Below, one piece after another: positions 3,979 through 57,658 of a DNA stretch of 64,000 bases; position 1 is the first letter of the stretch, and each line of letters begins with the position of its first letter. The stretch comes from a virus. Location: positions 1 to 64,000 of the IMG/VR virus record IMGVR_UViG_3300044878_000082; one strand, given 5' to 3'. The notes below the pieces were generated by a model. The model saw only the letters and a program-made list of their open reading frames with translations. It was not told where the DNA came from and ran no database searches. The position numbers and the translations under genes are program-made.

Positions 3979-4908
3979 ATGATTTTGATTAGCAACCGTG
4001 CTTCGGGACATGTGTCATTCCCTGCCGACTCCAAAGTGTTGCCGGGTGGTGAAGTACACCCTTACGTTGATCCAACCGTTGCGACGTGGTCTGCTGTCAA
4101 CCTGACCGCGCACCTCAAGAACGGCACGGACATCATGGACCTGATCATGGTGACTGACGCAATCCGTCGCCTGAACCCAGCGATCCAGATTCACCTGTGG
4201 ATGCCGTACCTACCGTACGCTCGTCAAGACCGTGTGCCGCGTCCTGGTGAGTCCCTGACCATCAAGCCGTTCTGCGACATCATCAACCTCCAGCGTTACG
4301 ACACCGTGTCGTTGTTGGACGTTCACAGTGACACCGGGCTGGCTTTGCTGGATCGTGTTCGTCACATCTCGTTGCCGCAAGTCGTCGCGAAAGCCATGAC
4401 TCGTCGTAATGAAGCGAACACTGGTGCGTGGACTAACACCGTCCTCATTGCTCCCGATGCTGGTGCGATGAAGAAGACGTTGGATCTGGCCCGGCTGGTT
4501 GGTTGCCCACATGTGGTCTGCGGCTTTAAAGACCGCGATACCGCTACCGGCAAGATCACCGGCACTCGGGTGGACATCAACTTCGAACCACGTCCGGGTA
4601 TGAACTGGCTGGTCGTCGATGACATCTGCGACGGCGGTTACACCTTCGTAGAACTGGCTAAGGCTCTGCGTGAGAAGCTGACGCCAATCCTCGGTGAAGG
4701 CGACCTGCAAACTGGCAAGCCTGCGTACGACCTGGAACTCTGGGTAACGCACGGTCTGTTCACCAAAGGCTTCGATGAGCTGAAGCGTCACTACAGCCGC
4801 ATCGAGACCACCAACTCGTGGCACCCTGAAGCACAATACAGTCAACGTCCAGATGGCGTGACTGACCAAGCGATCTACTGGCACTCCGTACAAGGAATTT
4901 TTGCATGA
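3979..4908 (+). CDS. ribose-phosphate pyrophosphokinase-like protein (probable NARP1 ADPR-PP synthetase, Adps)
   Basis: PYLPYARQDR, LDVHS, IAPDAGA, VVDDICDGGYTF motifs; start moved to ATG 3979 (AAGGAAG RBS) because the upstream part crosses a terminator. Confidence 0.9.
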   Translation: MILISNRASGHVSFPADSKVLPGGEVHPYVDPTVATWSAVNLTAHLKNGTDIMDLIMVTDAIRRLNPAIQIHLWMPYLPYARQDRVPRPGESLTIKPFCDIINLQRYDTVSLLDVHSDTGLALLDRVRHISLPQVVAKAMTRRNEANTGAWTNTVLIAPDAGAMKKTLDLARLVGCPHVVCGFKDRDTATGKITGTRVDINFEPRPGMNWLVVDDICDGGYTFVELAKALREKLTPILGEGDLQTGKPAYDLELWVTHGLFTKGFDELKRHYSRIETTNSWHPEAQYSQRPDGVTDQAIYWHSVQGIFA

Positions 4909-40838: not shown

Positions 40839-40991
40839 ATATATTCTATGTTTCAATGACCTTTTCAATAGTTTTGTGAAATCTGTTTAATTATATAGCA
40901 GCTATAACAAAATACGTTGTGGTCGCAATTGGTAAAGGCAGAATGCCGATTCCACCCCACTTATACTTATCCGATAAGTAAGGACTCAAAC

Positions 40992-43202
40992 ATGTCACTT
41001 CTGAAATACAAAGGTTCCGCTGGCTCGGCGCTGGCTAACGTGGTTTCTGCGCTGAAGCAAACCGTTGCTACCCAAGGTAGCGAGTTCTCCTCAAAAGGCA
41101 CTACCGGCAACCTGGTCTCGATGGAGAGCCTGGACGAAGCCGGCCACGCCGAACTGCATCGCGTCTGTAAAGACCTGTCTTCGGAAATCCGTGACGCGTT
41201 CAAAGCCCTGCGTCCTTCGATGGAAGACGGCGAAGAAGGCGGCGAAGAGCTGACCGAAGTACAACTGGAAGCTGGTGCCATCGCAGCCATGGCCGCAGGC
41301 GACCCTGCTGCTTACGCCGACGTAGCAATGCGTTCCCAGGCCGAACAAGGCGCTGGCATCGACGGCGTTGTTGACATCGGTTCGAGCGGTGCTGCTGGTT
41401 CCGTCGACACCCGCGACACTCCTTCGCTGGAATCGTTCGACGAACGTGAACTGGCCAAGTTCCTGCCTTACTCGATCGCCTTCAACGTGAAAGCGTCGGT
41501 TCAGGACAGCTTCTCGGAAATGTTCTACCCTACTACCGTTGTTCCGCCAGAACAAGGCGGCCTGGACATCACCGTTCGTCGTACCCTGGTACACAACGCC
41601 ATCCAGCACAGCAACACCGGTAAGGCCACCAACTGGAATCGTAAGAACCTGGTTGACGCCGCAATGGACCACACCATCTTGGCTGACGAGAGCACTGCTC
41701 TGGTTCCAGTGGTTCTGGCCAACGGCACCAACGCCGACATGTTCATCGACGAAAGCCTGCTGGCTCGCGAAGTTCGCCGCATCAGCAACGTTGACGTGAC
41801 CACCGCTCCACTCGCTATCAACCAGGAACTGAACCTGCTCGGCCTGTCCCAGCACCCTGGCCTGATCGGCGCTGGCGTGATCGACCACACCGACGCAATC
41901 GACAACAGCATTGGCCTGGACAAGATCTACGTTCAGATCGACGCTGCTGGTCCTCTGACCGATGGCGCTGACGTTATCGCTTTCACCACTCGTCGTCTGG
42001 CTCGCAGCCACTTCGTCAAGTCGGTTGAAGGTGCAAACCGTGAGATGAACCTGAACTTCCGTACTTCGGATCTGGTTCTCGACGCCAACACCAAGAACGT
42101 TGCCGGCGTTACTCCGGACGTACTGGCTGCCGTCGTATCGGGCGAACTGACTGTTCGTCTGGCCGTGAACCTGAACGGTGAGTTCGATACCCAACTGGGT
42201 AACGGTCGCGTTTACAGCTCGCCTGTAGTCGTTGACAGCATCGTGAACAAAGACGGTGTTGACATCTCCCTGACCGCTGGTGCTGGTGCAGCTATCGTTG
42301 CCTCCTTGGCCGGTTCGAAGGTTATTGCTTACGAGCTGAAAGCTGCTCGTACCAACAGCAACCGTCGTACCCGTGGTCTCCTGCTGGATACCAACGATCG
42401 TACCTTCCGTTTCCACATCCCACTGGGCGCTCCGATCTCGGCTCCTTCGCCAGCCGGTAGCAACCGTGACGCACGTGACCTGGAAGCACTGATCAGCGCT
42501 GCTCGCGTTCGTAACACCAACAACGCTGTGACCCGCCTGCTGAACTACGCAGAAACCCTGCGTGCTTACGCTGTCAGCGTCAAGCGTAACGACACCATTC
42601 CAGAAGTGGAAGGCGTCGGTCGTTTCCTGGTCAAGCCTTTCTTCGAAGAGAAAGAAATCGACCTGGAAGCTCAGGTATCGTCGATCCGTGACATGGACCG
42701 TGCCGAAGACATCAACGCGATCCTGGTTAACGCCATTCGTGACGTGTCGTACCGCATGTACCGTGACTCGGGCTACCAGCCAGCTCTGAACGCTGCCGTT
42801 GGTGGTTCCCAGCAGCCAAAACTGCTGATCGGTACCGACGTAGTTCTGCAACGTCACCTGATGGTCGTTGGCGACAGCCGCACCTTCGGTATCGCGTTCC
42901 CTGAATACCAAATCGAAAGTTCTTTCGACAGCCGTATGAAGGACACCATCGTCATCGCCCTGACCCGTACCGGTCAAGTCGAAGGCATCGACCCGCTCAC
43001 CTTCGGCGTTCACGCCTGGATTCCTGAGCTGGCTTCGAGCATGATGGTTCAGCGCGACGGTGGTACCTATCCAGAGGCCATGGTTCAACCACGTAACCTC
43101 CAGATCAACCACCTGCCGATGATGGCGATCATCAAAGTGAAAGGCCTGGACAAGGTCCTCACCTCCAAGGTGCCTGTATCTACCCAAGAGGTGCAGCCCT
43201 AA
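40992..43202 (+). CDS. major capsid protein (phiKZ gp120-like)
   Basis: ~736 aa, extreme codon bias, AAGGA RBS, S-x-E sites in N-terminal region, RTNSNRRTRG and NHLP motifs, synteny with DnaB. Confidence 0.9.
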   Translation: MSLLKYKGSAGSALANVVSALKQTVATQGSEFSSKGTTGNLVSMESLDEAGHAELHRVCKDLSSEIRDAFKALRPSMEDGEEGGEELTEVQLEAGAIAAMAAGDPAAYADVAMRSQAEQGAGIDGVVDIGSSGAAGSVDTRDTPSLESFDERELAKFLPYSIAFNVKASVQDSFSEMFYPTTVVPPEQGGLDITVRRTLVHNAIQHSNTGKATNWNRKNLVDAAMDHTILADESTALVPVVLANGTNADMFIDESLLAREVRRISNVDVTTAPLAINQELNLLGLSQHPGLIGAGVIDHTDAIDNSIGLDKIYVQIDAAGPLTDGADVIAFTTRRLARSHFVKSVEGANREMNLNFRTSDLVLDANTKNVAGVTPDVLAAVVSGELTVRLAVNLNGEFDTQLGNGRVYSSPVVVDSIVNKDGVDISLTAGAGAAIVASLAGSKVIAYELKAARTNSNRRTRGLLLDTNDRTFRFHIPLGAPISAPSPAGSNRDARDLEALISAARVRNTNNAVTRLLNYAETLRAYAVSVKRNDTIPEVEGVGRFLVKPFFEEKEIDLEAQVSSIRDMDRAEDINAILVNAIRDVSYRMYRDSGYQPALNAAVGGSQQPKLLIGTDVVLQRHLMVVGDSRTFGIAFPEYQIESSFDSRMKDTIVIALTRTGQVEGIDPLTFGVHAWIPELASSMMVQRDGGTYPEAMVQPRNLQINHLPMMAIIKVKGLDKVLTSKVPVSTQEVQP

Positions 43203-43266
43203 GCTGCTTCCAGGGATGGTACAAATCACTAGACTTCCGGGTCTGGTGTTCGCTCCACACCCTTGA
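43198..43266 (+). other. putative +1 frameshift extension of the capsid protein
   Basis: CCC-TAA at 43197-43202; +1 frame reads PKLLPGMVQITRLPGLVFAPHP-TGA-TGA. Confidence 0.55.
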
Positions 43267-43308
43267 TGATTCGTCGTCAGGGGTGAGTCCTTTAAGTGGG
43301 GACACACT

Positions 43309-43357
43309 GGAACTCTCCCTGACCTTCGGGTCAGGGAGGGATTCCTTTTATGCCGTC
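43309..43357 (+). terminator. strong terminator with TATGCC tag
   Basis: CTCCCTGACC-TTCG-GGTCAGGGAG...TTTTATGCCGTC. Confidence 0.85.
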
Positions 43358-43372
43358 TGTGATTCAAAGCGA

Positions 43373-52913: not shown

Positions 52914-55745
52914 GTGTCCAACGCTTACTATAGACTCTACGTTGACTCCATGATTCTCATGGCGAAAACGATTGTCATCAAGAGTGAAGCGACTGCTAAC
53001 GCGATGAACGTTGGGTTGAACGAACGGGGACTGGACGTTGATGAAAACGATCCAACCACCTGGAAGTACTACCTCAACCTGTCGGGACGTTATCATTCGA
53101 CTGACACACCGATGACAGTGACGTCGTTGGATACTCGTGAAGAGATTCCATTCGATGTCCAAACGCTTTCAGTACATCGCAGAACTTTGCGGGACTACGC
53201 TTTCGGTACACGTTTCTATGAGCAATTGGTTAACCGGTACCCTGAGCAGAGAGATCTGATTCACGGTATCTTGAATCCGGTGGACATTGACGTAGCGATA
53301 GCCGCACCAGATGGTAAGATCCTCTACATCGACCAGTTCCTGATCGAAGAGAACGAAACCAACTTGGTGAGCCAGATCCAAGACCGCATCGACGCATTCA
53401 TGCTACGGTACAACGTGGCTGAGTTCGTTATGGTTGACGACCTCTATCCAGCCGCTCACTTGGCGCTACTGTTCTTAAATTTACCCCTGTTCATTGAGGA
53501 CGCACGACTCACGAACTGTCATACGGAACAGGTTCACAGTTTCCATATTCGACAGTACCTGGCCAGTCACGGGAGACTGGACACGTATATCTCCCACCTC
53601 GACAAAGAGCAGATGCTCTTCCTTTATAGGAACATTCTGTACATCCAGCGCAACGCTGGTAAACAGGATACCTTCGAGTGGTTGATCGACAAAATCATGA
53701 CACACCGCATGTTACCGGTGGCTGAGTTCAATTTACATCATAACGTAAGTGAGCAGCCGGACAACTTGTACCCGACGGTGGAAGTAAAGCGTGTTGACCT
53801 GACGCGCTTTAAGAGTGGCAACCCGATCGACACGTTCTCTGTGGAAGAGATCTGTAACCGAGCAGCGTTTGTAGCGCCCGGTAACTACGATCAACTCGAC
53901 GCTACGATTGCTAAAGTCACCGACCAGATGACCCACAGCTCTAGTAACAAACTCAAGACCAAAATGCTTGAGTCTTCCGTCGTCGACCGCAGTAACGATT
54001 ACGCCCTCACGTTCTCAGACGTGTTGCTGAACCACTGGCTGTACTTTGCTCAAGAAGGTTGGTACAAGACGATCATCTCGTTTGACAACCCCCTGACTGG
54101 CGATCAGTTGTGGTACAGCGCGAAAGATGCGTTCATCTTGTGGATCTACGCCCTCAACCGTTCTCTGGGTCAAGACCTGACTTGGGTTCCAAATCCTGAC
54201 GCGGTGATGGTGCGTAAACAGTTCCTCCCGACCCGTGCTGACCTACGTAAGATCACCGAGTCCAAGCGTGTCCCTGACTCTGTACTGGATGCTTTGCTGA
54301 AAGACCAACCCGTCTTGAATGACTTGGTCTCGGTGGAAGCGTTCTACGACAAGTGTGTTCAGATCCACCATGCGTGGAAAGAGCACAACTGGATCTACAC
54401 CAGTCAGGAACATTACGAGGCCCGTGGTCAAGCCGAAGCGGCTGCACTACACCTGTACCAGAACAAGAACTGTCAGCTCGATAACGGCACGCCGATTACC
54501 TACGACCAATGGTTGCGGGAACATCAGCTTGACGTCACCAACTTCTCTAAAGCGGAGTTTGAGCTGTTAGCGGCTAACCTGCTGGCACTATCCACCGGTA
54601 CCAACTTACACGTCACAGTGAGCTTAGAAGAGCTTCAGGCCGCAATGATTCGCCTGATGACTCAACTGAGCAGTTACTCGGTGCAATTCCTTCGGGAGCT
54701 GCGCGGTACTAACATGATCTCACTGAACTGGTCGGCTATTCGACAAGGTGACGATGACGGTCAGGGTGAGGGTCACATGTACGTGCACGAGGCTAACGTC
54801 TACGTGCAAAACATGGATGGTAAGGGTAGCCACTATCAAGCCGAGACGCTGGACAACGCTACGTTTGAAATCACGAACAGCGCTGGCGAACACGGCGACA
54901 GTGGCAAGTACGACAACACGGTTAACTTCGCGTCTGACGGTTACTCCAAGTTCAAGATGCGTTTGACAATCCCGACCATCTACTGTTCGGTACCGGATGT
55001 CAAACCGCTAGAGCTGGACGACGTCATCAACCAGCAAGCTATTCCGGAATACCTGTACCTGCGGATGGCACCACCGAACATCGGTAACTACATCCACATC
55101 AACACGGTTCTGACTGAAACTGACCTTGACGGGTTTGTGTACTCACCGACTCCGGTGATTCCATGGGCCGACGTAACGTTGAATGGTTTCGACTACCCAC
55201 TGTTCGATGAGACCGCACTCAACCTGAAAGACTTGACCGGTTTCGACTACGACGTGATCCCTGTGGATAAGTTGTTGTTGGCTAACCAACTGAGTGGGTT
55301 CGAGTACGAGGTGTTGGGTGTTAAGCTGGCGCTGACCAACTACCTAGGTGGGTTTGAATACGCCACCATCGACGGCAGACTGTCACTCTCGACGAACCAG
55401 TCTGGGTTTGACTACCGTGAGACACCGGTTCCTCCACTGGATCTGAACCTAGAGCTGAGTGGACTGGAATACAACCCGGTTGTGTTGGAGTTGGATCTGT
55501 TGGACGGCTTGGCGGGCTTGGAATATGAAGTTCCAGCCAAACGTCTGAACCTGAACACCAACCTCAACGGTTATGACTACCCAGTTGCTGATGATCCACT
55601 GTTCATCAACTTGGGCGACTTCGATTACATCCCTGATCTGTCTAACCTGATACTACGCACCCGCTTGCCGGGCTTGGTGTTGAGGCAGGATGATGTTCCG
55701 AAGATGCGTCTTAACGGCTTGGTGTTGAATCCGCCACTCGAGTAA
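52914..55745 (+). CDS. virion structural protein (phiKZ gp128-like) with C-terminal peptide repeat array
   Basis: GGAGG RBS + GTG; TWKYYLNLSG.YH, HSFHIRQYLASHG, LFLYRNI, QLSSYSVQ; divergent from portal. Confidence 0.8.
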   Translation: MSNAYYRLYVDSMILMAKTIVIKSEATANAMNVGLNERGLDVDENDPTTWKYYLNLSGRYHSTDTPMTVTSLDTREEIPFDVQTLSVHRRTLRDYAFGTRFYEQLVNRYPEQRDLIHGILNPVDIDVAIAAPDGKILYIDQFLIEENETNLVSQIQDRIDAFMLRYNVAEFVMVDDLYPAAHLALLFLNLPLFIEDARLTNCHTEQVHSFHIRQYLASHGRLDTYISHLDKEQMLFLYRNILYIQRNAGKQDTFEWLIDKIMTHRMLPVAEFNLHHNVSEQPDNLYPTVEVKRVDLTRFKSGNPIDTFSVEEICNRAAFVAPGNYDQLDATIAKVTDQMTHSSSNKLKTKMLESSVVDRSNDYALTFSDVLLNHWLYFAQEGWYKTIISFDNPLTGDQLWYSAKDAFILWIYALNRSLGQDLTWVPNPDAVMVRKQFLPTRADLRKITESKRVPDSVLDALLKDQPVLNDLVSVEAFYDKCVQIHHAWKEHNWIYTSQEHYEARGQAEAAALHLYQNKNCQLDNGTPITYDQWLREHQLDVTNFSKAEFELLAANLLALSTGTNLHVTVSLEELQAAMIRLMTQLSSYSVQFLRELRGTNMISLNWSAIRQGDDDGQGEGHMYVHEANVYVQNMDGKGSHYQAETLDNATFEITNSAGEHGDSGKYDNTVNFASDGYSKFKMRLTIPTIYCSVPDVKPLELDDVINQQAIPEYLYLRMAPPNIGNYIHINTVLTETDLDGFVYSPTPVIPWADVTLNGFDYPLFDETALNLKDLTGFDYDVIPVDKLLLANQLSGFEYEVLGVKLALTNYLGGFEYATIDGRLSLSTNQSGFDYRETPVPPLDLNLELSGLEYNPVVLELDLLDGLAGLEYEVPAKRLNLNTNLNGYDYPVADDPLFINLGDFDYIPDLSNLILRTRLPGLVLRQDDVPKMRLNGLVLNPPLE
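55095..55742 (+). repeat. 12 tandem ~18-aa protein repeats, core L-x-G-[FLY]-[DEV]-[YL]
   Basis: LDGFVY, LNGFDY, LTGFDY, LSGFEY, LGGFEY, QSGFDY, LSGLEY, LAGLEY, LNGYDY, LGDFDY, LPGLVL, LNGLVL. Confidence 0.9.
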
Positions 55746-55814: not shown

Positions 55815-57074
55815 GTGAAGATAGTGCTTGACACAATCGGTTTGCTCACCTTATCTCCTCGAGCGGCTTTGCTGGAACTGATCAACTCGCGGAATGACGT
55901 ACAGTTACAGGATGACTGGATTGCCATCTTGAACCCTACGGTTGTCTCGGGTCGTGAAACCGAAGTGACGCTCAAGGTGCGAAAGAGCTTTGATCCGTTC
56001 GCCCCCGTTCCGTTTCAAGGGGAGACCAAATTCACCTATAACCGTTTGGACATCACAGAGTTCTTCATGGGTGCGAAGATCAACCTGACGATGCCCTTAC
56101 CGACGACTACCAGTGCGTTCTTGGAGGTGTTGACCAACGAGTACGGCTACGTGTTTGATTCGGATGATTTCTATGAAGACATCATTACTGTGGCCAATGC
56201 TCATGGCTATCGGTTGCGTGCTACTCCTCGTTCTCTACGGTGGATTGGGGAGTACGCTGTAAACCTGATGCCTCGGGAAGACCTCGAACTGATGGCTAAG
56301 GTAACGGACTTGGGTTCCTTGAATCCAGTGCTGCACCAAGGGCGTCCGTTTGTCACCCACAACAAACCGTTCACTGACGGTCTCTACTACGGTAGTTACC
56401 TCAAGAACATCCGTAAAGGGGTGATCGTTGACGGTGTGTACCTCGCCAGCATCATGGGGAGCATCTATTCCGGCCTCAACGTGGGCGTAGGGAAGACTTG
56501 GACGTACAGTCCTACTGCTGGGCCTAAGAACCTTTACGGTGCTCAGGTGAAGTATAACGGACATGTGGAGGACATTGGGGCTGTTCCGTACAACAAGAAC
56601 GCCACCAAGGTTTTGATCATCGAGCTGAACCCGACGCTCTGTACAGACGTCGCCGGTACACTCGTCATCTATTACAACTCCCGCATCAACGTGGTGATTC
56701 CAGAGTTCCCGATTGTCTACAAGCAACCGGCTGAACTGTTGGGTCTGGGTCAAGTCCACGGGCACAGCTACCCTGCACAGATTGTCCAGTATCCATCGGA
56801 CTACGAGTTCAAAACTGACGGGTTGAACATCGACTTCTTGAACACGATTTATCGTCAAGAGAATGCGGTGGGCGAAGATCGCTTTAAGTGTGTGAAGCGT
56901 CCGTCGCTGAATAACCTCTACGGGGCGAAGGTGTTGTTCAACGGGTACAACCGGAAGTGGCCTGAAGCATACAACGTGTACTTCGGTTACATCTGGGTGA
57001 TCCAACTCAACGAGCAGTACTGTACGAACCTACGGGGCAACCTGTTGATCCACTATAACCTGTCGAAGCTGTAA
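55815..57074 (+). CDS. virion protein of the phiKZ gp130/gp131-like family
   Basis: LLELINSRN, FTYNRLDI, A.P.SLRWIG; duplicated NLYGA.V.[YF]NG...C....G.L.I.YN domain. Confidence 0.75.
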   Translation: MKIVLDTIGLLTLSPRAALLELINSRNDVQLQDDWIAILNPTVVSGRETEVTLKVRKSFDPFAPVPFQGETKFTYNRLDITEFFMGAKINLTMPLPTTTSAFLEVLTNEYGYVFDSDDFYEDIITVANAHGYRLRATPRSLRWIGEYAVNLMPREDLELMAKVTDLGSLNPVLHQGRPFVTHNKPFTDGLYYGSYLKNIRKGVIVDGVYLASIMGSIYSGLNVGVGKTWTYSPTAGPKNLYGAQVKYNGHVEDIGAVPYNKNATKVLIIELNPTLCTDVAGTLVIYYNSRINVVIPEFPIVYKQPAELLGLGQVHGHSYPAQIVQYPSDYEFKTDGLNIDFLNTIYRQENAVGEDRFKCVKRPSLNNLYGAKVLFNGYNRKWPEAYNVYFGYIWVIQLNEQYCTNLRGNLLIHYNLSKL

Positions 57075-57085
57075 GGAGTCTCACT

Positions 57086-57658
57086 GTGTTGGAATTAGCA
57101 ACTGTTTTAAAGAGCACGGGCAATGAGACTCTGGTCGCGTTGTTCCAAGACTCGAATGACGTCTATCTGGACATGGGTCACTTAGACCTGACTTACTCCA
57201 GTGCTGCGGACACGATCAACGTCGTCGCTACGGCTCGTGTGACGGCTCTGGATGGTACGGCGGGTAAGTACAAAGGGGCGTTCACCGTGAAGTATAAACG
57301 CGGTAACGTGACGGCACTGATGAACGGTGTGGTGCAACTCCCTTTCCCTGCGGTGTTCCCATTCACCTTCGCTACCCTCAAGGCGGGTCTCAAAGCCCAG
57401 TACGGTTTGGTTATCGAGGCACAGGACGTGTTGATCCCCAATACGACCACGGTGATGACTGACGCTACTTCGATCACGGCTGGTATGGCGGTGTCGGGTG
57501 TGGTGGAACTGAAGGTGGCTGATAAGTCTCCTCGGTTCATTCCGAAGTCGGCGAATGGTGGTAGCTTCTTCATTAAAGTGGTTGACCCTGCGGGCGGTCA
57601 ATTGGATTACTTGGCGGGCACTACGACGCTGGGTTCTGTCACTACGATGGACGCTTAA
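57086..57658 (+). CDS. virion protein, gp131-like N-terminal domain
   Basis: TAAGGAG RBS; Y.G...V.YKR, L...YGL, SPRF pattern shared with upstream gene. Confidence 0.7.
   Translation: MLELATVLKSTGNETLVALFQDSNDVYLDMGHLDLTYSSAADTINVVATARVTALDGTAGKYKGAFTVKYKRGNVTALMNGVVQLPFPAVFPFTFATLKAGLKAQYGLVIEAQDVLIPNTTTVMTDATSITAGMAVSGVVELKVADKSPRFIPKSANGGSFFIKVVDPAGGQLDYLAGTTTLGSVTTMDA

What the first reader, a model, noticed from the sequence alone, without database searches (positions are those of the whole stretch)
43191..43269. Capsid gene ends in CCC-TAA; +1 frame appends a virion-motif peptide
Seen: the capsid ORF ends GTG CAG CCC TAA. Slipping +1 (CCC to CCT) reads K-L-L-P-G-M-V-Q-I-T-R-L-P-G-L-V-F-A-P-H-P, then TGA TGA, all before the terminator. 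The peptide shares TRLPGLV exactly with repeat 11 of the virion protein at 52914-55745 (LSNLILRTRLPGLVL) and fits its repeat consensus. Established: CCC-U followed by a stop drives +1 frameshifts that extend phage structural proteins (e.g. SPP1 major tail protein, Listeria phage capsid proteins). Inference: a minority of capsid subunits display a short docking tag rather than a folded Ig-like domain. I do not know of this being described for phiKZ-like capsids.
Basis: partly seen in the sequence, partly recalled or inferred. Interest (0 to 1): 0.9.

Follow-up and report, generated by a model that had tools for sequence, protein, structure and literature searches.

The report
Frameshift tail tag on jumbo-phage capsid
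The major capsid gene of this uncultured phiKZ-like giant phage is followed, one base out of frame, by 21 codons that evolve as protein and copy the last unit of the baseplate wedge protein's tail, so a small share of capsid subunits very probably gain a short docking tag through a ribosomal +1 slip at the CCC-UAA stop.

Summary
The phiKZ-type major capsid (MCP) gene ends CCC TAA. The +1 frame then reads 21 codons and two stops, upstream of the terminator.

- **Conservation:** the +1 peptide is present in 10 distinct sequences (this window and 9 metagenomic relatives). The core V..T-R-L-x-G-L is invariant although its Arg and Leu codons vary. All three indels are multiples of 3.
- **Match to the baseplate:** in 6 of 7 phages the whole tail aligns over 14-19 residues to the terminal unit of that phage's own baseplate wedge protein (phiKZ gp128 orthologue). 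No shuffle reached these scores, only the +1 frame gives them, and most identical residues use different codons.
- **In-frame relatives:** more distant MCPs, including cultured Xanthomonas phage LucasX, carry a like motif in frame. Their gp128 orthologues carry matching arrays. A sister clade has neither.

So the peptide is almost certainly translated, most simply by a +1 shift at the stop. CCC occurs nowhere else in the gene.

Weak points:
- No protein data exist.
- One subclade ends CCG or CAA before TAA, which are poor slip sites.
- The binding partner is unknown.

The scan found the same thing earlier on other DNA (e1-5651742). I found no paper describing it.

The parts
40992..43202 (+). 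Major capsid protein gene (phiKZ gp120 family). The ORF opens at 40917; the likely start is ATG 40992, preceded by AAGGA.
   Evidence: Pfam PF25620 PhiKZ_MCP, E 3.6e-212. phrog_3231. PDB hits to jumbo-phage MCPs, including phiKZ gp120 8y6v. Start codon seen; homologues are 720-730 aa.
43188..43193 (+). SD-like GAGGTG, 3 nt upstream of the CCC codon. This is the same spacing as in prfB. It occurs in this window only.
   Evidence: Read. The relatives have GAAGTG, GCGGTG, GAAGTT or CAAGAG at this place, so it is not conserved.
43197..43203 (+). Proposed shift site CCC_UAA_G: peptidyl-tRNA-Pro re-pairs CCC to CCU, and AAG (Lys) is read next.
   Evidence: CCC is the last sense codon in all 4 members of the window's subclade, but is used for 0 of 27-28 internal Pro codons of the same genes. 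Genome-wide, CCC makes up 11.8% of Pro codons.
43201..43269 (+). The +1 ORF: 21 codons (K-LLPGMVQI-TRLPGLV-FAPHP) followed by TGA TGA.
   Evidence: protein-coding signature in 10 sequences; aligns to the terminal unit of P0002, and only in this frame.
43227..43248 (+). Hairpin formed by the T-R-L-P-G-L-V codons (9 bp in the window).
   Evidence: for the window fold. Across relatives only 4 bp are kept, with one compensatory change, so this hairpin does not explain the conservation.
43258..43285 (+). Stable hairpin with a UUCG loop that starts at the last codons of the +1 ORF.
   Evidence: many compensatory pairs (alignment A1, columns 78-105). Also present in relatives that lack the peptide.
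43287..43303 (+). Invariant stem-loop GUCCUU-UAAGU-GGGGAC in the MCP 3' UTR.
   Evidence: Identical in all 10 sequences and nearly so in relatives at 65% identity. Unique in the window. No Rfam family matches.
43311..43350 (+). Intrinsic terminator of the capsid transcript.
52914..55745 (+). Baseplate wedge protein (phiKZ gp128 orthologue) with a C-terminal array of about 12 L-x-G-[FL]-[DE]-Y units. The array ends in two R-L-x-G-L-V-L units.
   Evidence: PDB 9xqs_C PHIKZ128, E 4e-123 over residues 3-630. Role of gp128 from PMC13250141. Array read.
55638..55679 (+). Unit LSNLILRTRLPGLV of the wedge protein, the counterpart of the capsid +1 tail.
   Evidence: 8 of 14 residues identical, score 38, reached by 0 of 500 shuffles. 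18 of 42 nucleotides differ.

Best explanation
**Proposed mechanism.** Most ribosomes translating the major capsid mRNA terminate at UAA (43200-43202). A minority shift one base forward while peptidyl-tRNA-Pro sits on the final CCC codon (CCC re-pairs with CCU). They then read AAG and 20 more codons, giving an MCP that is 21 residues longer.

**What the tail is.** The added tail (core L..V..T-R-L-P-G-L-V) is a copy of the terminal unit of the C-terminal array on the baseplate wedge protein (gp128 orthologue).

**Where it would sit.** In phiKZ the MCP C-terminal arms meet at the centre of each hexamer. The tail would therefore emerge there and present, on a few capsomers per head, the same short linear motif that the baseplate presents in multiple copies. 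Presumably it recruits the same, still unidentified, partner.

**Shown here:**
- The sequence is as described.
- The tail shows protein-level selection in the +1 frame.
- It resembles the wedge unit of the same phage.
- A like motif stands in frame on other MCPs.

**Inferred:**
- Attachment to the MCP by a +1 shift.
- A low share of shifted product.
- The docking function.
For: **(1) Coding signature in 10 distinct sequences**
- V, T, R, L, G and L are invariant. Arg is encoded by AGA, CGA, AGG or CGG, and the two Leu by CTT/CTA/TTG and CTG/CTA/TTA/CTT/TTG.
- pN/pS is 0.48 with no stops; 0 of 2000 column shuffles reach this.
- There are 66 first-position synonymous pair differences on the plus strand and 0 on the minus strand.
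- All three indels are whole codons.

**(2) Match to the same phage's gp128 orthologue**
- The tail aligns ungapped over 14-19 residues with scores of 38-55. None of 500 shuffles reached these scores in 6 of 7 phages.
- 6-8 of the identical residues per pair use different codons.
- The other five frames score only 14-26.

**(3) In-frame relatives and matched variants**
- More distant MCPs carry a like motif ([YW]L.G[LI]..P) in frame at the extreme C-terminus. These include cultured phage LucasX.
- All gp128 orthologues examined from these phages (five IMG/VR records and LucasX) carry motif arrays, and the variant usually matches the MCP tail. Example: LDGH.Y in both proteins of one phage.
- The sister clade without the MCP motif has short gp128 orthologues without arrays.

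**(4) Link to the capsid reading frame**
- The peptide frame is +1 and opens at the stop codon in all 10 sequences.
- No internal ATG, GTG or TTG has an SD-like word in front of it, apart from a 4-nt GAGG in one relative (L001).

**(5) Shift-prone site**
- The final codon is CCC in the window's subclade, although CCC is absent from the rest of the gene.
- CCC_stop is a documented +1 site: Listeria phage tsh genes, E. coli pheL at 15%, and more than 1% in about half of the E. coli genes that end in CCC_UGA (PMC5009743).

**(6) Structural fit**
- The phiKZ gp120 C-terminal arm lies at the capsomer centre and, in pentamers, binds an outer decoration protein (PMC11297242).
Against: - There are no protein, ribosome-profiling or reporter data. 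The phage is uncultured.
- Five relatives end CCG_TAA and one ends CAA_TAA. After a +1 move the P-site tRNA cannot re-pair well on these, so either the shift works without re-pairing, its rate is very low there, or another mechanism is used.
- A terminal Pro is family-wide, also in MCPs without any tail such as phiKZ gp120. It is therefore not specific evidence.
- The SD-like stimulator is not conserved, and no downstream structure stands at a canonical distance.
- One close relative (L003, 89% identity) has lost the tail yet keeps the wedge units, so the tag is dispensable.
- The resemblance to the in-frame tails of other clades rests on a short motif (PSSM p of 0.0025-0.075 per sequence).
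Confidence: 0.7

Rival explanations
1. The 21 codons, or their last 15-19, are a separate mini-gene. After terminating at UAA, the ribosome re-initiates nearby at ATG, GTG or TTG and makes a free micro-peptide that carries the wedge-type motif, for example as a competitor or regulator of the motif's partner.
For: Every sequence has at least one ATG, GTG or TTG within the first 8 codons of the +1 ORF. The selection shown proves translation, not attachment to the MCP.
Against: - The candidate starts lie at different codons (3 to 8) and have no SD-like word in front, apart from a 4-nt GAGG in one relative (L001).
- Residues upstream of them (K-R-x-L-A-E) are conserved and take part in the match to the wedge unit: KLAEMV against KLADMV in L004.
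- At least two of the three indels lie upstream of the candidate starts, yet they keep the frame with the capsid stop.
- In other clades a like motif is physically part of the MCP.
Confidence: 0.12
2. The tail is attached to the MCP, but by a recoding event other than a simple +1 slip on the last codon. Candidates are a short hop of peptidyl-tRNA-Pro over the stop or a -2 shift, at least in the CCG/CAA subclade.
For: CCG_UAA and CAA_UAA are poor +1 re-pairing sites. In L009, L010 and L014 a second CCG lies 7 nt after the stop in the +1 frame (CCG TAA GCG A CCG TTG), a possible landing site.
Against: The second CCG is absent in L004, L018, L005 and the whole CCC subclade. I found no conserved take-off and landing pair or homopolymer.
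Confidence: 0.08
3. Nothing is translated. The conservation reflects RNA structure in the capsid 3' UTR, or a decaying relic of a former in-frame tail.
For: - The 3' UTR is strongly structured (z = -5.7).
- The TRLPGLV codons form a hairpin in the window.
- Relatives without the peptide have a plain hairpin at that place, and the sister clade has a truncated +1 remnant KLLQLAEKL-stop.
Against: - Only 4 bp of that hairpin are kept, with one compensatory change. L018 and L004 keep the peptide with quite different codons.
- Synonymous changes at first and third positions, whole-codon indels and absence of stops are not expected of an RNA element or a relic at this divergence.
- An RNA element would not match another protein of the same phage through different codons.
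Confidence: 0.05
4. The conserved reading frame is on the minus strand. The region would be the start of the long antisense ORF 43367..41091, which runs through the whole capsid gene.
For: The antisense frame is open over about 2.1-2.2 kb in all 14 relatives. It shares third positions with the +1 frame, so its pN/pS is also low (0.56, no stops).
Against: - At the sites that tell the two frames apart, the plus frame has 66 synonymous pair differences and the minus frame 0. Invariant residues number 6 of 18 against 3 of 17.
- The minus-strand frames do not match the wedge protein (scores 16-24 against 38-55).
- Inside the gene the antisense frame is the exact codon-for-codon complement. It stays open simply because TTA, CTA and TCA are rare (1.5% of codons in this genome, fewer in highly biased genes).
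Confidence: 0.01

Closest known systems
Listeria phages PSA, A118 and A500: +1 frameshift at (AAA) CCC_UGA at the end of the major tail gene tsh; PSA capsid gene cps: +1 at ACA_CCC before a pseudoknot (PMC5009743)
   Same: A +1 shift on a CCC proline codon at or near the end of a major structural gene yields a minor C-terminally extended virion subunit alongside the major form.
   Different: - Those extensions are longer.
- In the wider class of frameshifted capsid and tail extensions the added part is often an Ig-like domain; here it is a 21-residue linear motif copied from a baseplate protein.
- Here the host is probably Gram-negative and the phage a jumbo myovirus, and the stop is UAA.
- The site is not conserved in the whole clade.
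Bacillus phage SPP1 major tail protein gp17.1 and gp17.1* (from my memory of Auzat et al. 2008; not read here)
   Same: A +1 frameshift at the end of the gene, on a proline codon next to the stop, gives a minority of extended subunits that co-assemble with the major form.
   Different: That is a tail tube protein and the extension is a folded domain.
T7 10A/10B and T3 gene 10: -1 frameshift near the end of the major capsid gene
   Same: Two capsid protein forms come from one gene, with the minor form carrying a C-terminal extension displayed on the head.
   Different: The direction is -1, on a heptanucleotide-type site. The extension has no counterpart elsewhere in the virion.
E. coli prfB (RF2) autoregulatory +1 frameshift, CUU_UGA with an SD-like element 3 nt upstream (from my knowledge)
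   Same: A shifty stop: a slow-to-decode stop in the A site and a slippery P-site codon. In this window, GAGGTG stands at the same 3-nt spacing.
   Different: The prfB shift is regulatory and highly efficient, and its SD-like element is essential. Here the SD-like word is not conserved, and the product is an alternative isoform.
In-frame C-terminal motif of related jumbo-phage MCPs, e.g. Xanthomonas phage vB_XciM_LucasX LUCX_285 (...NVYLDGLKYPTP-stop) with an LD[DE]L.YP array on LUCX_291
   Same: The same pairing of an MCP C-terminal tail with the unit type of the gp128-orthologue array in the same phage.
   Different: There every MCP subunit carries the motif, with no recoding. The unit is of the L-D-G-L-x-Y-P type rather than R-L-P-G-L-V-L. 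No function has been described for either.

Membership tests
PhiKZ-type major capsid protein (Pfam PF25620) | Full-length match to the family profile above the curated cut-off | tested here: met
   706 bits against a cut-off of 27, profile positions 1-634 of 635. PDB matches to gp120 of phiKZ and other jumbo phages.
Programmed +1 ribosomal frameshift at a 'shifty stop' | A P-site codon that can re-pair in the +1 frame, directly followed by a stop codon | tested here: met
   CCC_UAA_G in the window and in L001, L002 and L019. CCC is otherwise absent from these genes. Not met in six relatives (CCG_UAA or CAA_UAA).
Programmed +1 ribosomal frameshift at a 'shifty stop' | The +1 ORF downstream is conserved as protein-coding and is in phase with the upstream gene | tested here: met
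   The frame is +1 from the stop in 10 of 10 sequences, and the indels are whole codons.
Programmed +1 ribosomal frameshift at a 'shifty stop' | A conserved stimulatory element (SD-like word 3 nt upstream, or a downstream structure at a short distance) | tested here: not met
   GAGGTG is at the right spacing in the window only. The conserved hairpins begin at least 25 nt after the stop.
Programmed +1 ribosomal frameshift at a 'shifty stop' | Two protein products from one gene, shown experimentally | not testable with these tools
   The phage is uncultured. No proteome or reporter data were found.
Frameshift-appended Ig-like or other folded decoration domains of phage capsid and tail proteins | The extension is a folded domain of about 80-100 residues | tested here: not met
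   The extension is 21-24 residues in all 10 sequences.
phiKZ gp128-type baseplate wedge protein (for the protein at 52914-55745) | Sequence homology over the structured N-terminal 630 residues to PHIKZ128, and conserved gene neighbourhood | tested here: met
   PDB 9xqs_C, E 4.4e-123. tblastn with phiKZ gp128 gives 36% identity, E 8e-118. The neighbours are the gp129, gp127, gp139 and gp140 orthologues.

The most novel reading that the evidence does not exclude
Nucleus-forming jumbo phages may share a head-to-baseplate tagging system. In it, the extreme C-terminus of the major capsid protein carries a copy of the terminal unit of the baseplate wedge protein's C-terminal array, and the two co-vary from phage to phage.

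The copy is supplied in frame in some clades and by recoding in others: +1 here, and by the scan's earlier unchecked notes stop read-through in phiKZ itself and -1 in EL-like phages.

Recoding would then set how many of the roughly 1500 capsid subunits recruit the same unidentified partner (a fibre, adaptor or assembly factor) that the baseplate binds.
Probability: 0.45. Interest if true: 0.9.

Novelty: new variant of a known kind. Interest (0 to 1): 0.8.

Why it matters
- **Hidden isoform.** Frameshift-made capsid isoforms are known in small phages, but I found none described for the phiKZ-like nucleus-forming jumbo phages, whose virions are now being solved at atomic detail. A minor MCP isoform would be averaged out by icosahedral reconstruction and missed by gene callers.
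- **Unexpected link.** The tail copies a unit of the baseplate wedge protein and co-varies with it across clades. This points to an unrecognised short linear motif system that links head and baseplate.
- **Testable now.** The in-frame version can be tested in a cultured phage (LucasX).
- **Annotation rule.** In this family, compare all three frames after the MCP stop with the C-terminus of the gp128 orthologue.

Tried and rejected
- **Complex prediction.** Complex prediction with the gp139 orthologue (two copies, alignment of 121 rows) and residues 884-943 of the wedge protein returned 'no answer' (scores 0.04 and 0.02). It says nothing for or against binding.
- **More DNA.** I therefore could not get DNA for about 15 further close MCP homologues, including three that end 8 residues early (P0008-P0010).
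- **Pattern scan.** A scan of IMG/VR for the invariant stem-loop found no new capsid loci; the seven extra hits were unrelated.
- **Other collections.** The genome collection gave only two distant MCPs.
- **L052.** This MCP (39% identity) has a +1 ORF ending ...AMPGLYAVMP after CCG TAA, but no relatives were found, so its conservation could not be tested.
- **RNA families and tRNAs.** Rfam gave no family for the 3' UTR. There are no tRNA genes in the window or the 113-kb contig, so no phage-encoded shifty tRNA on the held DNA.
- **Solved structures.** No PDB sequence matches the repeat array.
- **Hop hypothesis.** A CCG-to-CCG hop fits only 3 of 10 sequences.
- **Upstream stimulator.** An SD-like upstream stimulator is not conserved.
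- **Sequencing runs.** Only contigs were available. One soil RNA-library contig of a relative runs from the MCP end across the tail region to the conserved stem-loop. This shows neither translation nor RNA-level editing. The low word shares in other runs were not interpreted.
- **Motif resemblance.** The PSSM built from in-frame tails scores the +1 peptides only moderately (p 0.0025-0.075).
Full report
**1.
The ORF 40917-43202 (likely start ATG 40992) is a phiKZ-type major capsid protein (MCP). It matches Pfam PF25620 at E 3.6e-212, phrog_3231, and solved jumbo-phage MCPs including phiKZ gp120. It ends GTG CAG CCC TAA at 43191-43202. From 43201 the +1 frame reads K-LLPGMVQI-TRLPGLV-FAPHP and then TGA TGA at 43264-43269. 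The intrinsic terminator follows at about 43311-43350. TRLPGLV also occurs in the protein of 52914-55745. An open +1 frame of this length after a stop is common in this genome (42% of long ORFs). Everything therefore depends on comparative evidence.

**2. The +1 peptide is conserved as protein.**
IMG/VR and metagenome scans gave relatives of the capsid gene. Nine of them, together with the window, carry the +1 ORF (21-24 codons): L001, L002 and L019 in the window's subclade, and L004, L018, L005, L009, L010 and L014 in a second subclade.
- In a gapless 18-codon block, V, T, R, L, G and L are invariant.
- Arg is written AGA, CGA, AGG or CGG. The two Leu are written CTT/CTA/TTG and CTG/CTA/TTA/CTT/TTG.
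- pN/pS is 0.48 with no stop codon; 0 of 2000 column shuffles reach this.
- The three indels (window minus one codon; L019 and L005 plus one codon) are whole codons.
- The only competing frame is the minus-strand frame that shares third positions (pN/pS 0.56). At the sites that tell the two apart, the plus frame has 66 synonymous pair differences and the minus frame has none.

**3. RNA structure does not explain it.**
The 3' UTR is highly structured (z = -5.7). The hairpin that starts at the end of the +1 ORF has many compensatory pairs, and an invariant stem-loop, GUCCUU-UAAGU-GGGGAC, follows. Both also exist in relatives that lack the peptide (L003, L006-L012). The hairpin formed by the TRLPGLV codons keeps only 4 bp across relatives, with one compensatory change. 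L018 and L004 encode the same peptide with different codons.

**4. The tail copies the terminal unit of the baseplate wedge protein.**
The protein of 52914-55745 is the orthologue of phiKZ gp128 (PDB 9xqs_C, E 4e-123). In phiKZ, gp128 is the single-copy subunit of each baseplate wedge (PMC13250141). Gene order agrees: the gp129, gp128, gp127, gp139 and gp140 orthologues lie together.

Its last 300 or so residues are a lineage-specific array of L-x-G-[FL]-[DE]-Y units that ends in R-L-x-G-L-V-L units. I fetched the gp128 orthologue from the same phage records as the capsid loci.
- The whole +1 tail aligns without gaps to the terminal-type unit of its own phage.
  - L004: KLAEMVTQTRLPGLRL against KLADMVVFTRLPGLTL (12 of 16 identical).
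  - L010: LAELVTTTRLPGLRLVTPP against LADMVVITRLPGLVLTPRP (11 of 19).
  - Window: 8 of 14.
- In 6 of 7 phages, none of 500 shuffles reaches the score.
- 38-53% of the aligned nucleotides differ, and 6-8 of the identical residues per pair use different codons. The likeness is kept at the protein level and is not a recent DNA copy.
- Only the +1 frame gives these scores: 38-55 in those six phages (26 in L001), against 14-26 for the five other frames.

This is the strongest argument that the peptide is made.

**5. Other clades carry a like motif in frame.**
Among 120 MCP homologues, a large separate clade ends in frame with ...NP[YWF]L.G[LIF]..P-stop. So do IMG/VR loci L038-L042, L048 and L053 and the cultured Xanthomonas phage LucasX (...NVYLDGLKYPTP).
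- All gp128 orthologues examined from these phages (five IMG/VR records and LucasX) carry arrays of the same unit type.
- The variant tracks the MCP tail in most of them. One phage has LDGH.Y..P in both proteins. Another has L.G[IL].YP in both. A third has GLKYP in both.
- An own-versus-other score matrix shows this at the level of four groups.
- The sister clade of the +1 clade (L006, L007, L011) has neither the MCP motif nor the array. Its gp128 orthologues are 728-762 aa, about the length of phiKZ gp128, which is 724 aa.
- One exception: phage L003 has lost the MCP tail but keeps the wedge units.
- On its own, the resemblance between the in-frame tails and the +1 tails is modest.

**6. How the tail is made (inference).**
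- The tail frame is +1 and opens at the stop codon in all ten sequences.
- Internal ATG, GTG or TTG codons lie at varying positions and lack SD-like words, apart from a 4-nt GAGG in one relative (L001).
- Residues upstream of them are conserved and belong to the match with the wedge unit.
- In the window's subclade the last sense codon is CCC in 4 of 4 sequences. CCC is used for none of the 27-28 other prolines of the gene, against 11.8% genome-wide.
- CCC followed by a stop is a documented +1 site (PMC5009743).
- The window also has GAGGTG 3 nt upstream, the same spacing as in prfB, but relatives do not.
- The second subclade ends CCG_TAA or CAA_TAA, which are poor re-pairing sites. A CCG-to-CCG hop would fit only three sequences. 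The mechanism there is open.
- With roughly 1500 MCP copies per phiKZ-sized head, even a shift rate around 1% would give about 15 tagged subunits (my estimate, not measured).

**7. What the tail may do (inference).**
In phiKZ the MCP C-terminal arms form a six-helix bundle at the hexamer centre. In pentamers they bind the outer protein gp244 (PMC11297242). A tail would therefore emerge at capsomer centres. In phiKZ the outer baseplate is tied to gp128 through a band of gp139 dimers that ends at gp127. The orthologues of these proteins flank the wedge gene here. The partner of the motif is unknown.

**8. Context.**
I found no paper on recoding in phiKZ-like capsid genes. Earlier notes of this scan report the same +1 tail on another genome (e1-5651742), and read-through or -1 versions in other jumbo phages. 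Of these I checked only one point: phiKZ gp120 ends CCG TGA and is followed in frame by 26 codons with two RYLE[ND]G units before the terminator.

**Verdict.** The peptide is real and selected (about 0.9). It is attached to the MCP by a +1 shift (about 0.7). Its docking function is plausible but untested.

Noticed in passing
window 41091-43367 (minus strand); same place in L001-L012, L014, L018, L019: The codon-for-codon antisense frame of the capsid gene is open for about 2.1-2.2 kb in all 14 relatives examined, down to 65% protein identity. TTA, CTA and TCA together make up 1.5% of codons genome-wide, and only 3 of 761 in the capsid ORF. Codon bias probably explains this, but the persistence is striking.
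   Followed up: partly
window 43287-43303 and 43258-43285: An invariant stem-loop, GUCCUU-UAAGU-GGGGAC, lies in the capsid 3' UTR of all relatives, including those without the +1 peptide. It is preceded by a hairpin with many compensatory pairs. No Rfam family matches. The function is unknown; RNA stability or processing of the most abundant late mRNA are possibilities.
   Followed up: partly
L106 (phiKZ NC_004629) 4510-4600: phiKZ gp120 ends AAG CCG TGA. It is followed in frame by 26 codons (AGKGYRYLENGTIRYLEDGNARKLEE) with two RYLE[ND]G units, just before the terminator. This fits the scan's earlier notes of a read-through tail. I did not test its conservation.
   Followed up: partly
L102 and L104 (Xanthomonas phage vB_XciM_LucasX, LUCX_285 and LUCX_291): This cultured phage has the motif in frame on its MCP (...NVYLDGLKYPTP) and about 11 LD[DE]L.YP units at the C-terminus of its gp128 orthologue. 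That orthologue was discussed in its genome paper as a GTA-like protein. It is a ready experimental model.
   Followed up: partly
L052 (IMG/VR 3300005961_000015), after the MCP stop: An MCP only 39% identical ends ATC CCG TAA. It has a 22-codon +1 ORF ending ...RAPAMPGLYAVMP, which resembles the tail motif. No relatives were available to test conservation.
   Followed up: partly
L065, and L008/L011/L012/L017, after the MCP stop: The +1 frames begin K-R-T-L-A-E... (L065, MCP 32% identical) or K-L-L-Q-L-A-E-K-L-stop (sister clade), echoing the K-R-x-L-A-E start of the tail. These may be remnants or a shared nucleotide element. Unexplained.
   Followed up: no
MCP homologues P0003-P0122: Most MCPs of the family end in proline (..TP..QP..YP..AP), whatever the tail type. 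This includes phiKZ gp120 (..LKP). A C-terminal Pro slows termination in E. coli (from my knowledge). It may be a family-wide predisposition to recoding at the stop, or a structural feature.
   Followed up: no
window 55815-57074 and 57086-57658: The gp127 orthologue (419 aa against 290 in phiKZ, with two phrog_1037 stretches) and a 190-aa paralogue follow the wedge gene. The paralogue ends ...GGQLDYLAGTTTLGS..., which resembles the tail motif, and the gp127 orthologue holds FTDGLYY.
   Followed up: no
window 43050-43317 in run X10 (soil RNA-seq library): A 5.3-kb contig of a relative, at high word depth, runs from the MCP 3' end through an 80-nt counterpart of the tail region to the conserved stem-loop. 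It comes from an RNA library, but this is not proof of transcription.
   Followed up: no
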